A program made the translations under genes and the position numbers. Below the pieces are notes generated by a model. The model had not been told where the DNA came from, searched no databases, and saw only the letters and a program-made list of their open reading frames with translations. From Octopus vulgaris (Eukaryota), in assembly GCA_951406725.2 (NCBI GenBank), contig OX597815.1, forward strand, positions 27,838,001-27,902,000: a DNA stretch of 64,000 nucleotides. The letters are read 5' to 3'. Every line of letters starts with the position of its first letter. The stretch's first letter is position 1. Of this stretch, positions 4,901 to 10,900 are shown in pieces.

Positions 4901-7900
4901 AGTCTCAACAGTCTCCAAGAGCTCTCAGGGGTTCTTTGGCTGCTATTTCTAAACTTCGGTATGTGGTAAAGCAAATCTTTTGCTGAACCCTAATTATAAA
5001 GTATATATATATATATATATATATATATATATATATATAATAATAATAATAATAATAATAATAATAATAATAATGATATAATAATAATAATAATAATAAT
5101 AATAATAATTGTGTACAGTGCTCAGGTGCACTACAACTCATCTAAAGTGTATATATAATCAGGTGTAGTTTCGGCGGATTTCGGAAGCATGAGGCCTTAA
5201 AGGATGCAGTGTCATGGCAGTCAACAAATATATCCTGCATTATTTGCACATTCATCAGGAAGTGCTAGATGTATGTGTTAAGTCTTATGTAGCACCCTGA
5301 GAATGTTGCATCAAGTTTATGTTTGTATATTTAAGTAACAATTGCAGCGAAGTTAGGAAGATGGATTCAGTTTGTGTATGACAGTCTTAATTCCTAGAAA
5401 TTTATGATAGAACATTGGTAACCTAACATAACTTGTTCTTAAGTAAATATCTCTTAATTAGGTATGAATTTACTTGTCATGAAAATATTGTCCAGTTTCT
5501 GTTATGTAGAAAACAGGATTCCTACCCTTAATATTTAAATATTTTTATAGTATGACATACAAGATACTTAACTGCTTAGCCTTGATTGACAAAACCTACA
5601 ATAAAAAAAAAAGATACAGTCCATTACACTAGAGAGAGAGAGAGAGAAGACACCCTTCGGTCATGAATGACCATGGCATTGCACCTACAAAGTTACCCAC
5701 CGAGGCACAAGTCCGGGCAAAGTTGTTTGTGGAAGGCCAGCACTTGCCCATGTATATCAGCCTCCCCTCCCCACGCCACTGATGTTACCCAAGGGAAAGG
5801 CAAAGGCGGATACAGCTTGGCACCAATGACGCCGTAACTCATTTCTACAGCTGAGTGAACTGAGGCAGTGTGAAATAAAGTGTCTTGCTCAAGAACACAA
5901 CACACAGCCCAATCCGAGAATTGAACTCACAACCTCATGATGCTGTCAAATGGTTAGTTCAAGGAAGAAATGGAGAGAGAGAGAGAGAGAGAGAGAGAGA
6001 AAGTGTGTGTGTGTTAGTGCTGAGAGGTTAGAGAAGAATATTGTGGATAGATATATTCATTGACAGATAGGAGACAGAAAGATGAATGGCTAGATATATT
6101 GATACATAGTTAAATCAAAGTGAAATAACCTTAGCAAGTAACTGTGGATGTTACTTATACCTTTTCATGTGTAGCAGCCCAAAGGCTGAGGCAAATCTGG
6201 AGCACTGCAATTATTTAGGTTTTTTTTTTTTTTAGTTATTTGGTTTAAATGTTTGTATTGTTAGAATAAACAGATACATACATTGACAGAATTATAAGTA
6301 GAATATGATACATAGATAGATAGATAGGTAGGTAGGTAGATTGATTAATTGCCCCTTTCAATACTGCCTGTGTGAATTTTCACACATTGTCAAGAATCAA
6401 ATGTTTCAGAAAAATACAATTTCATCATACAATTTTCAAAATAATTATGGAATTTCTACTGGTACTGTTAGAGCATTATTGTTATTGGTTCTTAAGTATT
6501 GAATAGCTTAAAATGATTCATACCTGGGATGTTTCTATTTGATATTTCATTAGTTTTTTGTCTAATTTTGACAGGAAAGAAGATGTGAAAGCTACTGAGA
6601 AAGACAAAGTAGGTGACTGAATTTCTCCTTGTCTCTTTTTTTTGTGATGGTTTAAATTGTGTTTTTAGTAAATCAACTTTCTGTTTTGAGTTTATATCTG
6701 GTTATTGAATATATTTTTATAAAACATGATTATTTAAAGATCTATCTGTCCATCTATTTTCACTGCTCACTATTGTTAGGAGGATCATCTTCAGGTACCT
6801 CCTCCATAGAATCCTCTCAGAAATTACTGTCATTAAATTTCCAGGGCACCATTTGAGTGTGATCGTTACCAGTGTCGCCTTACTGGCACTTGTGCCCGTG
6901 CTAGTAGGGTGCCAAAAGCACCATCCGAGCGTGATTGTTGCCTGAGCAGCCAGCTGGCTTCCGTGCCGGTGGCACGTAAAAGGGCACCATTCGAGCATGA
7001 TCGTTACCAATGTCGCCTTACTGGCACCTGTGCCGGTGGCATGTGTGAAAAGATTTGAGTAAGGTCATTGCCGTGCCGGTGGCATGTAAAAAGCACCCAC
7101 TACACTCTCGGAGTGGTTGGCATTAGAAAGGGCGTCCAGCTGTAGAAACTATGCCAGATCAAGATTGGAGCCTGGTGCAGCCATCTGGTTCGCCAGCCCT
7201 CAGTCAAAATCGTCCAACCCATGCTAGCATGGAAAGCAGACGTTAAATGATGATGATGATGATGATGATGATGATAATTCTCAAGCATGACCAACTGAGA
7301 CTACAGATATTATCCAACCGTCTTGCTTGTGATCTTCTGTTGGTCGACTCAACTCAGAGAATGTCTTGTGATTCTCTCTTGCAGTATTCTGACCATATTC
7401 GTAATACTGAAACTGTAACCTCTCAATGTGGAAAAGTAGTGGGTTGACTTGGAGATACTACCTGATCTCCGAACTACATACCCTGTCGATTAAAGTTATA
7501 GTAGAGATCTTTCAGCCTCTTAAAAATGTAACCTCTAAGTTTTAGGTTTAGTTTTGAATGTCATATAATCATTAATTAAAATCATGATACTGCCACTGAT
7601 ATTTTAAAACTTAAGTGAATTATTCTGACATATCCAATTTTCATTAGGGAGGTCGTTGATTAAGCTCCAAAATTGAAGAAAAACTTTTTATATGTTCCAT
7701 TTCTAACATTTATATTCCTTTCTAGGTTGAAATGTATCAATGTTTCCGCCCTGGTGATATCATTGTAGCTAAAGTTGTATCCTTTTCTTTATAATACATA
7801 ATATTTTAAATAATTTAACATACTCTGTCATTGGTTATCTTCTTTTGTTGTTCCCTGCTAGCATGGGTTAGATGAATACATCTTATTACAATTTATCGAA

Positions 7901-10900
7901 GCTTTGTTTTTATAGCTGAATGTGCTCTTTGTCACAAACACTTACCTGTTTTCAATTAAGGTTTTTCATTCTACTTGTCTTTAAAAGTGCAGAGCTGCTG
8001 AAGGATTTATTGACAAATAAATGTCAACTATCACTGTCTATACCTCAGCAGTTTTCATGCAAAGCATAAAATGCATCTGGTTATGTGATGTGGGTGGATG
8101 GCAACAGCTCCATAAAGAAGTGGTGATCTCTCGAAGTTGATGGAACACATGGAAGAGGGAGACCCAGGAAGACATGGGATGAAGTACTGAAGGATCACCT
8201 CAGAATGCTGAACCTTTCAGATGAGACGACAAAGGACTGAGATACCTGGTGTCTTATCGTACTCAAGAAGGCCTGTACTTAACAGCAGAAGTGTTAAGGC
8301 TGCATCCCCTGGTGAAGAGGATTGGCCTGCAAGAGTCCTGTGCCGATGCCACATAAAAAGCAGTGGTTGGTGTTAGGAAGGGCATCCAGCCTTAGAAACC
8401 ATACCAAATCAGACTGGAGCCTGGTGCAGCTCTCTGTTCAAACTATCCAACGCATGCCAGCATGAAAAACATGTTTACGTGCAGGTATGGCTAAGAAACT
8501 TGCTTCACAACCATGTGGTTTTGGTTTCAGTTTCTCTACCAAGCTCCTTGTCCTATTATATCCTCAGTTCAGCCAAAGTCTTGTGAGTGGATTTGGTAGA
8601 CAGTAACTGAAAGAAAGCCTTCATATATGTGTCCCTGTCTTGAGATCTTGTGATGATTGTAAGCAAGCATCACTATCATACAAGTGATGTTGTTTGTTTC
8701 CAGTCTTCCATGAAAAATATGTCTGGTCATGAGGAAATACTATCTGTTTCTTTATTACCCACAAGGGGCTAAACACAGGGAGGACAAACGGATTAAGTCG
8801 ATTGCACGTAAAAAGCACCCACTACACTCACGGAGTGGTTGGCTTTAGGAAGGGCATCCAGCCGTAGAAACACTGCCAAATCTGACTGGGCCTGATGAAG
8901 CCTTCCGGCTTCACAGACTCCAGTTAAACCGTCCAACCCATGCTAGCATGGAAAACGGACGCTAAATGATGATGATGATGATGATATCGACCCCAGTGCG
9001 TAACTGGTACTTAATTTATTGACCCCGAAAGGATGAATGGCAAAGTCGACCTCGGCGGAATTTGAACTCAGAATGTAACGGCAGACGAAATACGGCTACG
9101 CATTTCGCCCGGCGTGTTAACGTTTCTGCCAGCTCACCGCCTTAATGAGGAAATACTATCTTGCTAGGAAACAGGTGAAGGTTGGCAGTAAAGAAACTTA
9201 ACTTTCTTCCAGGTCTAGTCCACTTAATAGTAAGGAAGTACAGGTCACCACTATAATCAGTGATGAACTTTGTATTTGACATCATGAAATTGCAATACTG
9301 AGTTCAAAACCTTTCATGAGTCCAGAGGGTTACAGGAAACTACTTCAAGAGTCCTCTTAGAATCACTTTCTTGAAATTGTAAGTCTTTAGTGATGTCTTG
9401 TAATTGTAACTTGATTTTGTGAATGAATATCTGTTAATGTATCCTTGACTTGATTATCTCTCACTGGGAGATGCACATTCATATCTGTTGACCACAGCTG
9501 AAAATGAACTAGGAGTAGTAGTCGCAACCAGTGAAGCAGGTATAGTGTTTAAATTTAATTTCTTTTTTTTTTGTGTAACCACCCCCATCCCAGTATAGTT
9601 TATTCAGTATTTTCTTTAAGTTGAACACTCTTGGCAGACAGCAAAGTTATTGACTAGACCAGTGGTTTTCAACCAGGGTTCCGTCAGTACAGTCCAGGGG
9701 TTCCGCAAGAAGTTACAAAACTGCTAAAATCGGCAGTAATTTTTAATTCTCCTGTGCAGATATGTGTGCATAAGACTATTAAATTATTGCACAGGGGTTC
9801 CTCGAGCCAGTGGAATGTTTCCTTGGGGTTCCGCTCCAGCAAAAAGTTTGAAAAGTACTGGACGAGACACTTTACACTAGTTTAGCTTACTATTTCCTAA
9901 TACTATTGAAGCCCACTTTGCTTTCCTTTTAGCTATAGTTGAAAGGAGATTGAAAAGTAATATACTACTCTTGGTTAGTTCACCAGGAGAATATTTTATT
10001 TCCTGTGAGAGTGGATGTGTTTAGACTTTATTATAGAATAAGATTTTTTGAATGGAAATAAATCACCAAAGAAAGGCCATTTAAATGACTGGGTCATCAA
10101 CTCCAACCTCTGGCTCATAGATGTGTTGTGCTTCTCTTTGTCTATTCTGTAGCTACTGCAGTAGCCTCTGCTCTATGTTTCTGGTTGATTATGAGCTGCC
10201 TCTACTCTGGTTTCCTTGATTTGTTTCATTCATATTGATCTCCCTCTCCTTAACATGAAATACTGCAGTGCTTCAGAACTTTAGAATCTTTAAATTTCTT
10301 CCTTTATAACTTTCCACTTCATCCCAACTTATTTAAGAATATATTAAATCAGAAATAGAAAAAATATGAATAGGCGTATGAGTGGCTGTGTGGTAAGTAG
10401 CTTGTTTACCAACCACATGGTTCCGGGTTCAGTCCCACTGCGTGGCACCTTGGGCAAGTGTCTTCTACTATAGCCTCGGGCCGACCAAAGCCTTGTGAGT
10501 GGATTTGGTAGACAGAAACTGAAAGAAGCCCGTCGTGTGTGTGTGTATATATATATATATATATATATGCGTGTGTGTGTTTGTCCCCCTAGCATTGCTT
10601 GACAACTGATGCTGGTGTGTTTATGTCCCCGTTACTTAGCGGTTCAGCAAAAGAGACTGATAGAATAAGTACTGGGCTTACAAAAGAATAAGTCCCGGGG
10701 TCGAGTTGCTCGATTAAAGGTGGTGCTCCAGCATGGCCGCAGTCAAATGACTGAAACAAGTAAAAGAGTGATGGATAAAAGAAAAAGAAAACCCTCCTGC
10801 ATTATTGATTGTCAGAATCATTTATCCTCTAGTTGTAAATATATGAATCATCTTAGGCCATTGTTTTTTTTTTTTTTAGGTTATCCTATGGTACCCATCA

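What the first reader, a model, noticed from the sequence alone, without database searches (positions are those of the whole stretch)
7777..9470. U12-type intron in EXOSC1 with an apparent GT-AT boundary
Seen: a consensus U12 donor GTATCCTTT (7777) and branch site TCCTTGAC (9442-9449), with no AG between the branch site and the conserved exon. The only in-frame acceptors are AT|CTC (9457/9458, giving KV|LSLGD like the recalled human KV|ISLGD) or AT|TAT (9454/9455). The first AG (9469-9470) and the AC (9463-9464) both frameshift into a TGA. Known: the minor spliceosome picks its 3' site mainly by distance from the branch point and tolerates odd terminal dinucleotides, but GT-AT is very rare. 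Inference: productive AT and unproductive AG/AC acceptors may compete and set exosome-cap levels through NMD. Automatic annotation would probably mis-model this exon. The branch site also sits inside a second GTATCCTT (9439-9446).
Basis: partly seen in the sequence, partly recalled or inferred. Interest (0 to 1): 0.8.

Follow-up and report, generated by a model that had tools for sequence, protein, structure and literature searches.

The report
Octopus EXOSC1 GT-AT minor intron
An octopus gene for an RNA-exosome subunit (EXOSC1/CSL4) has an intron that ends in AT instead of the usual AG, and a transcript contig is joined at that point; it is likely cut by the rare minor spliceosome, a known uncommon intron type that several public gene models get wrong, and the proposed regulatory role has no support.

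Summary
Intron 7777-9457 (1,681 nt) of octopus EXOSC1/CSL4 starts GTATCCTTT, has TCCTTGAC 9 nt before its end, and ends in AT. A spliced contig (run X10, depth 181) joins 7776 to 9458. Two DNA runs (X2, X8) read T at 9457, so an assembly error is very unlikely. None of 126 homologous proteins has an extra residue at the junction. The human intron with the same donor context is U12 GT-AG, so this is a one-base subtype difference. GT-AT is a known minor-intron subtype: 319 cases, 0.43% of animal orthologous minor introns. U12 dependence is inferred, not shown. The NMD idea is unsupported: no AC or AG junction was seen (contigs drop rare forms), and the frameshift stop lies only 48 nt before the last junction. 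The second GTATCCTT is at chance level. Four of six octopod protein records mis-model this junction. The scan noted GT-AT minor introns in other genomes, and other non-canonical ends in this genome. Verdict: real, a new member of a known kind, interest 0.33.

The parts
7726..7776 (+). EXOSC1 exon upstream of the minor intron (17 codons, ends in K-V, phase 0)
   Evidence: its last 30 nt are the loose end of the spliced contig
7777..9457 (+). GT-AT intron, 1,681 nt, likely U12-type
   Evidence: junction in the X10 contig; a 1-nt shifted TG-TA reading fits the RNA equally
7777..7785 (+). U12-type 5' splice site GTATCCTTT
   Evidence: 7774-7785 is identical to the mouse Exosc1 minor 5'SS 12-mer in the PMC6717393 supplement; X1 and X7 contigs span 7600-7992 with 0 other letters
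9442..9449 (+). U12-type branch site TCCTTGAC, predicted branch A at 9448, 9 nt before the last intron base
   Evidence: unchanged in the X2 and X8 DNA contigs; branch point not mapped
9456..9457 (+). non-canonical 3' terminal dinucleotide AT
   Evidence: X2 (depth 52.3) and X8 (depth 4.8) contigs cross it with no other letter listed there
9458..9539 (+). EXOSC1 exon downstream of the minor intron (starts L-S-L-G-D)
9463..9464 (+). AC, 16 nt from the branch A; use would shift the frame; not seen used
9469..9470 (+). first AG after the branch site, 22 nt from the branch A; use would shift the frame; not seen used
9489..9491 (+). TGA reached if AC or AG were used; ends 48 nt before the last exon-exon junction
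9439..9446 (+). second GTATCCTT overlapping the branch site; chance-level
7754..7755 (+). cryptic GT inside the exon; joined to AG 9496-9497 it reproduces the 21-residue deletion of record CAI9717169.1 (P0008)
1800..1918 (+). EXOSC1 coding exon (the first coding exon lies outside the modelled part)
3366..3437 (+). EXOSC1 coding exon
4106..4194 (+). EXOSC1 coding exon
6575..6608 (+). EXOSC1 coding exon
10880..10992 (+). last EXOSC1 coding exon with the stop codon
   Evidence: the X10 contig joins 9539 to 10880

Best explanation
The 1,681-nt intron 7777-9457 of octopus EXOSC1/CSL4 has GT-AT ends and is removed in the assembled transcript, likely by the minor (U12) spliceosome, and it is likely the same old minor intron that ends in AG in human. 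Shown: the junction, the genomic T, the intact protein. Inferred: U11/U12 recognise GTATCCTTT and TCCTTGAC, branching is at A9448, and the 3' end is then chosen by distance and by a penultimate A. The only AN dinucleotides after the branch site lie 6 (AT), 9 (AT), 16 (AC) and 22 (AG) nt away. GT-AT is a productive pair and GT-AC a disfavoured one, so AT at 9 nt wins. The G-to-T change at the last base is most likely a tolerated, near-neutral subtype difference rather than a regulatory device.
For:: the X10 contig (737 nt, depth 180.7, 0 other letters) lies on 9457-9541. Its 5' loose end equals window 7746-7775 and its 3' loose end equals 10882-10911, so it is spliced at both ends. DNA contigs X2 (9368-9548) and X8 (9357-9548) differ from the window at 9405 and 9406 (X8 also at 9367) but not at the branch site or 9456-9457, so they are other haplotypes carrying the same AT; the model equals P0001 (RefSeq XP_029658035.1 / XP_014788727.1); 0 of 126 proteins have a residue between V131 and L132, and 123 of 126 have no indel in residues 127-136; the human structure chain aligns without a gap at the junction; human and mouse EXOSC1 minor 5'SS are GTG|GTATCCTTT and GTT|GTATCCTTT; the human intron is U12-type G|GT-AG. 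GT-AT supports productive U12 splicing, with 4 human and 3 mouse cases; 319 animal cases; optimum branch-to-3'ss distance 11-13 nt, GT-AC disfavoured.
Against: The junction was seen in one RNA-type run only (1 of 1 laid on the repeat-free stretch); the joints of X10 and X11 were crowded out by repeats. The tool labels X10 as RNA by a guess. T at both 7776 and 9457 makes TG-TA an equal fit to the RNA. The 9-nt spacing is shorter than the 11-13 nt optimum. X1 gave no contig (the tool says its filter can drop contigs), and the X8 contig has depth 4.8. U12 dependence, the branch point and octopus U11/U12 snRNAs were not tested (no genome held). PMC10853781 numbers the human intron as between exons 7 and 8, so orthology rests on donor context and protein alignment.
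Confidence: 0.88

Rival explanations
1. The weak AT acceptor competes with AC 9464 or AG 9470, and NMD of the frameshifted forms sets EXOSC1 levels.
For: Both sites shift the frame into TGA 9489-9491. AC at 16 nt is not far from the optimum distance. U12 3' site choice is error-prone (PMC3584512), and 76% of human non-canonical sites take part in alternative splicing (PMC4176328).
Against: Only the AT junction was seen, although contigs drop rare forms. GT-AC is disfavoured, and the same review doubts that alternative U12 3' sites are regulated. The AG is 22 nt away. The stop ends 48 nt before the last junction, at or under the recalled 50-55 nt rule.
Confidence: 0.07
2. The GT-AT end slows splicing, so retention (stop at 7792-7794) followed by nuclear exosome decay throttles EXOSC1 as a feedback loop.
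For: In human cells retained U12 introns are exosome substrates (PMC4066798), and EXOSC1, EXOSC2 and EXOSC5 carry minor introns whose retention lowers exosome function (PMC12095793). Non-canonical ends often splice less efficiently. X10 and X11 hold low-depth intronic contigs in this intron (depth 2.9-7).
Against: Intronic contigs of similar depth (2.1-2.9) lie in the next, GT-AG intron too, and contig depth is no measure of retention. The loop would exist for the GT-AG version as well. No X10 contig crosses from intron into exon at 9457.
Confidence: 0.12
3. The T at 9457 is an assembly error or a private allele, and the real intron is GT-AG.
For: One base change would give a canonical end, and human has AG.
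Against: X2 and X8, from two studies and two species labels, read the window's letters across 9456-9457 while differing elsewhere. Other octopod gene models fail at this junction.
Confidence: 0.01
4. The major spliceosome removes a canonical intron from cryptic GT 7754 to AG 9496-9497, as in record CAI9717169.1.
For: The pair is in frame and reproduces P0008 exactly.
Against: It deletes 21 conserved residues; 123 of 126 proteins keep residues 127-136. The X10 contig keeps them. It looks like an annotation forced onto GT-AG.
Confidence: 0.02
5. The intron has TG-TA ends (cut one base to the left), or is cut by the major spliceosome at GT-AT.
For: The RNA cannot tell the two registers apart. A U2-type GT-AT intron conserved in human and mouse is reported (DGCR2).
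Against: The U12 donor consensus starts exactly at 7777, the ortholog is a minor intron, and there is no long pyrimidine tract before 9457.
Confidence: 0.04

Closest known systems
Non-canonical U12-type GT-AT introns, e.g. human/mouse DEADC1 and SLC24A6 (PMC1557818 Tables 2-3); 319 animal cases, 0.433% (PMC10639083 supplement row)
   Same: U12 donor and branch site, G at +1, AT at the 3' end, productive splicing, frequent mis-mapping by annotation.
   Different: A different gene and lineage; the branch-to-end spacing here is short (9 nt); an exonic AC and AG follow within 22 nt.
Human and mouse EXOSC1 minor intron (chr10:97437276-97437699, 424 nt; mouse 393 nt; PMC6717393 supplement; G|GT-AG in PMC10853781)
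   Same: Same gene, same donor context after a valine codon (the mouse 12-mer is identical to window 7774-7785), phase 0, no indel in the protein.
   Different: Human ends in AG, octopus in AT. The branch sequence is CCTTCAC in mammals and CCTTGAC here. The octopus intron is four times longer and holds interspersed repeats.
Subtype switching of orthologous minor introns (PMC1557818 Table 3: 14 of 24 human-mouse pairs with a non-canonical member differ; ACTR10 and BANP in PMC4176328)
   Same: One-base difference at an intron end between orthologs.
   Different: No GT-AG/GT-AT switch is listed in that table, and this case is in a mollusc.

Membership tests
U12-type (minor) intron | 5' splice site RTATCCTT at +1 to +8 | tested here: met
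   GTATCCTTT at 7777, at the RNA junction
U12-type (minor) intron | Conserved branch sequence (TCCTTRAC-like) close to the 3' end | tested here: met
   TCCTTGAC at 9442-9449, unchanged in X2 and X8
U12-type (minor) intron | Short branch-to-3'ss distance (optimum 11-13 nt) | tested here: inconclusive
   9 nt from A9448 to the last base: short and near, but under the optimum; the branch point is not mapped
U12-type (minor) intron | No distinct polypyrimidine tract | tested here: met
   Only 8 nt lie between the branch motif and the exon; judged by eye
U12-type (minor) intron | Excised from mRNA at those ends | tested here: met
   X10 spliced contig; 1-nt register ambiguity
U12-type (minor) intron | Orthologous position is a minor intron in other animals | tested here: met
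   Human and mouse EXOSC1 rows, protein alignment
U12-type (minor) intron | Splicing depends on U11/U12/U4atac/U6atac | not testable with these tools
   Needs knock-down; no genome held to look for the snRNAs
GT-AT subtype | Genomic terminal dinucleotides GT and AT in independent DNA | tested here: met
   Donor in X1 and X7; AT in X2 and X8
AS-NMD regulated intron | An unproductive isoform exists at measurable level | tested here: inconclusive
   Not seen in the one RNA contig; contigs drop rare variants
AS-NMD regulated intron | Premature stop more than 50-55 nt before the last junction (recalled rule) | tested here: not met
   48 nt from the last stop base, 51 counting from the first
EXOSC1/CSL4 | PF14382 plus PF10447 domains and full-length match to human CSL4 | tested here: met
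   (E 1e-66 to 6d6q_I)

The most novel reading that the evidence does not exclude
Octopods fixed a deliberately weak GT-AT end with a 9-nt branch spacing in an exosome cap subunit, so that slow minor splicing and exosome decay of the retained transcript form a tighter feedback loop than in mammals; and, with the other odd ends noted in this genome (GT-TG, several AT-AA), the octopus minor spliceosome may read 3' ends more loosely than the roughly 3.8% non-canonical share reported for animals.
Probability: 0.12. Interest if true: 0.65.

Novelty: new member of a known kind. Interest (0 to 1): 0.33.

Why it matters
It is an RNA- and DNA-checked natural GT-AT minor intron in a mollusc whose human counterpart is GT-AG. 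That gives a ready natural test of how the minor spliceosome picks a 3' end: AT at 9 nt wins over AC at 16 nt and AG at 22 nt. It also corrects public models: 4 of 6 octopod CSL4 records seen are truncated or lack 21 residues because of this junction. It does not reveal a new mechanism.

Tried and rejected
Whole-genome search: no genome is held, so octopus U11/U12 snRNAs and other minor introns were not examined. First read laying on 7600-11200 (X10, X11, X1, X7): interspersed repeats filled the tables (15 joints shown, 2,417 not shown), so it gave no junction. X1 gave 0 contigs on 9235-9548, which proves nothing; it had mean depth 37 in bin 9415-9535. AT|TAT at 9454/9455: rejected, the contig's loose end starts at 9457 and 0 of 126 proteins have an extra residue. 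Second GTATCCTT as a functional donor: rejected as chance; donor and branch motifs share TCCTT, and 4 of 90 TCCTT on the + strand are preceded by RTA against 5.1% expected. A-to-I editing that creates an AG acceptor (reported for GT-AA; editing is extensive in cephalopods, recalled): rejected, there is no AA in 9449-9475. Retrocopy as the source of the spliced contig: unlikely, X2 and X8 show no such contig and intronic contigs in X10 have depth 2-7 against 181. Mis-modelling in Argonauta (P0002) as proof of a conserved AT: only a hint, since an oyster record (P0057) is also broken next to this junction and no Argonauta DNA was seen. ATATCCTTT at 59564 and 61693: neither looked like an exon end in three-frame translation. 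Dietrich 2005 is not held. A supplement search of PMC4176328 for GT-AT found nothing, and one file was not searched.
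Full report
Observation. The sequence is as described. GTATCCTTT begins at 7777 right after a K-V exon end. TCCTTGAC lies at 9442-9449, and no AG occurs between it and 9469-9470. Seven exons (1800-1918, 3366-3437, 4106-4194, 6575-6608, 7726-7776, 9458-9539, 10880-10992) give one open frame; five of the six introns are GT-AG and one, 7777-9457, is GT-AT. 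The 185-residue translation is contained unchanged in P0001, a 195-aa CSL4 recorded for Octopus sinensis and O. bimaculoides, with the Pfam domains of EXOSC1. The window is therefore from the genus Octopus. The motifs alone are at chance level in 64 kb (RTATCCTT 5 against 5.67; TCCTTRAC 7 against 4.10); their position at the intron ends is what counts.

RNA. On the repeat-free stretch 9235-9548, run X10 gave one contig (737 nt, depth 180.7, no other letters) lying on 9457-9541. Its 5' loose end is window 7746-7775 and its 3' loose end is window 10882-10911. So the transcript joins 7776 to 9458 and 9539 to 10880. Because both 7776 and 9457 are T, a TG-TA cut one base to the left gives the same RNA; the U12 donor starting at 7777 decides for GT-AT. 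This is one RNA-type run (labelled RNA by a guess, but spliced at two junctions). X11 was laid only, where repeats hid the joints. Contigs cannot count minor forms.

DNA. X2 (contig 9368-9548, depth 52.3, 2 other letters) and X8 (9357-9548, depth 4.8, 3 other letters) differ from the window only at 9367, 9405 and 9406 in those contigs, and read the window's letters through the branch site and 9456-9457. They come from two studies and two species labels. X1 returned nothing in that call, so 2 of 3 DNA-type runs were informative and both agree. X1 and X7 span 7600-7992 with no substitution, which confirms the donor. An assembly error or private allele is very unlikely.

Proteins. Of 126 proteins aligned (all those held), none has a residue between V131 and L132, 123 have no indel in residues 127-136, and 3 have a deletion (P0002, P0008, P0057). 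The human solved chain aligns without a gap at the junction. Of six octopod records, two are right (P0001, P0006). Two read into the intron and stop, like the retention frame here (P0007, P0026). One joins a cryptic exonic GT (7754) to AG 9496-9497 and loses 21 residues (P0008, O. vulgaris), and one (P0002, Argonauta) loses 21 residues at a slightly different point. The cuttlefish record P0009 is right. The Argonauta error hints that the odd end is shared more widely, but this is not shown.

Mechanism. Inferred from known U12 biology: the U11/U12 di-snRNP reads the donor and branch site together, there is no pyrimidine-tract requirement, and the 3' end is set largely by distance, with an 11-13 nt optimum (PMC3584512, passages). 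After A9448 the only dinucleotides with A in the penultimate place are AT at 6, AT at 9, AC at 16 and AG at 22 nt. GT-AT supports productive splicing (PMC1557818, passages and Tables 2-3), and GT-AC is disfavoured. That the penultimate A is essential and that spacings under 10 or over 20 nt activate other sites is recalled from Dietrich et al. 2001, not read here. AT at 9 nt is thus the best available site, though at the short edge.

Regulation. AC or AG use would reach TGA 9489-9491, which ends 48 nt before the last exon junction. That is at or under the 50-55 nt rule (recalled, mammalian; mollusc NMD rules were not looked up). No such junction was seen. A better-founded route would be retention and nuclear exosome decay, since retained U12 introns are exosome substrates in human cells (PMC4066798, passages) and EXOSC1, EXOSC2 and EXOSC5 carry minor introns (PMC12095793, passages; EXOSC1 listed in PMC1874599, passages). 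That applies equally to the GT-AG version, and nothing here shows extra retention. The second GTATCCTT is explained by the TCCTT core shared by donor and branch motifs. A-to-I editing cannot make an AG here, as there is no AA in 9449-9475.

Comparison. Human and mouse EXOSC1 have a minor intron with 5'SS GTG|GTATCCTTT and GTT|GTATCCTTT (PMC6717393, supplement rows), and the human one is G|GT-AG (PMC10853781, passages; supplement search). GT-AT minor introns are catalogued: 4 in human and 3 in mouse, and 319 or 0.433% among animal orthologous minor introns (PMC10639083, passages and one supplement row; its preprint, passages). Non-canonical ends make up about 3.8% of that set. One-base switches between orthologs are common (PMC4176328, passages). 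PMC2831892 and PMC11347168 were read as passages and do not mention GT-AT. I found no paper on this octopus intron in searches for EXOSC1+U12+intron, GT-AT+U12+intron, octopus+minor intron and cephalopod+non-canonical splice+U12 (0 papers). However, O. sinensis and O. bimaculoides are among the species of PMC10639083 and RefSeq models the protein correctly, so per-intron tables that I could not see (FigShare, IAOD, MIDB, bioRxiv supplements) may already hold it.

Earlier scan notes (AI notes, not checked by me) report GT-AT minor introns in LIPT1, INPP5B and ALG8 of other genomes, and GT-TG and AT-AA minor introns in this genome. They did not change the reading; they suggested the genome-wide comparison in the novel case.

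Verdict. A real GT-AT intron, likely U12-dependent (0.88), a new member of a known rare kind, useful for annotation and as a natural test of 3' end choice. The regulatory story is unsupported. Interest 0.33.

Noticed in passing
window 10247-10268 (+): A perfect TCCTTAAC followed by CAG 15 nt after the branch A lies in the next (GT-AG) intron. It could act as a decoy U12 acceptor for the 7777 donor, skipping exon 9458-9539 and giving a premature stop. The motif count is near chance, and no contig supports its use.
   Followed up: partly
window 35800-37701 (-): One uninterrupted 633-codon frame encodes an ankyrin plus AAA ATPase protein of the CLPB/Skd3 type. The human gene has many introns (recalled), so this may be a retroposed, intronless copy.
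   Followed up: partly
window 50440-51531: Tandem array of 14 copies of a 78-nt unit, 94% matches, with open frames on both strands; it appears to lie within the WDR3-like gene region.
   Followed up: no
window 40833-41960 (+) and onwards: Exons of a WDR3-like gene (best Pfam match Beta-prop_WDR3_1st).
   Followed up: no
window 11130-19834 (-): A convergent neighbour gene ends close to the EXOSC1 3' end; it has a 452-codon frame at 18476-19834 with no Pfam match. An X11 contig of 3,409 nt covers 10878-11096 and runs on beyond the part laid.
   Followed up: no
window 8326-8446, 8689-9172, 9657-9898, 10370-10770: High-copy interspersed repeats inside the minor intron and the next intron, judged from very high contig depth. 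They look like octopus SINEs and a small inverted-repeat element (labels recalled).
   Followed up: no
window 7809-7992, run X11: An X11 intronic contig differs from the window at 6 of 184 bases while X10 shows none in similar contigs, although both runs carry the same species label; the label may cover two lineages.
   Followed up: no
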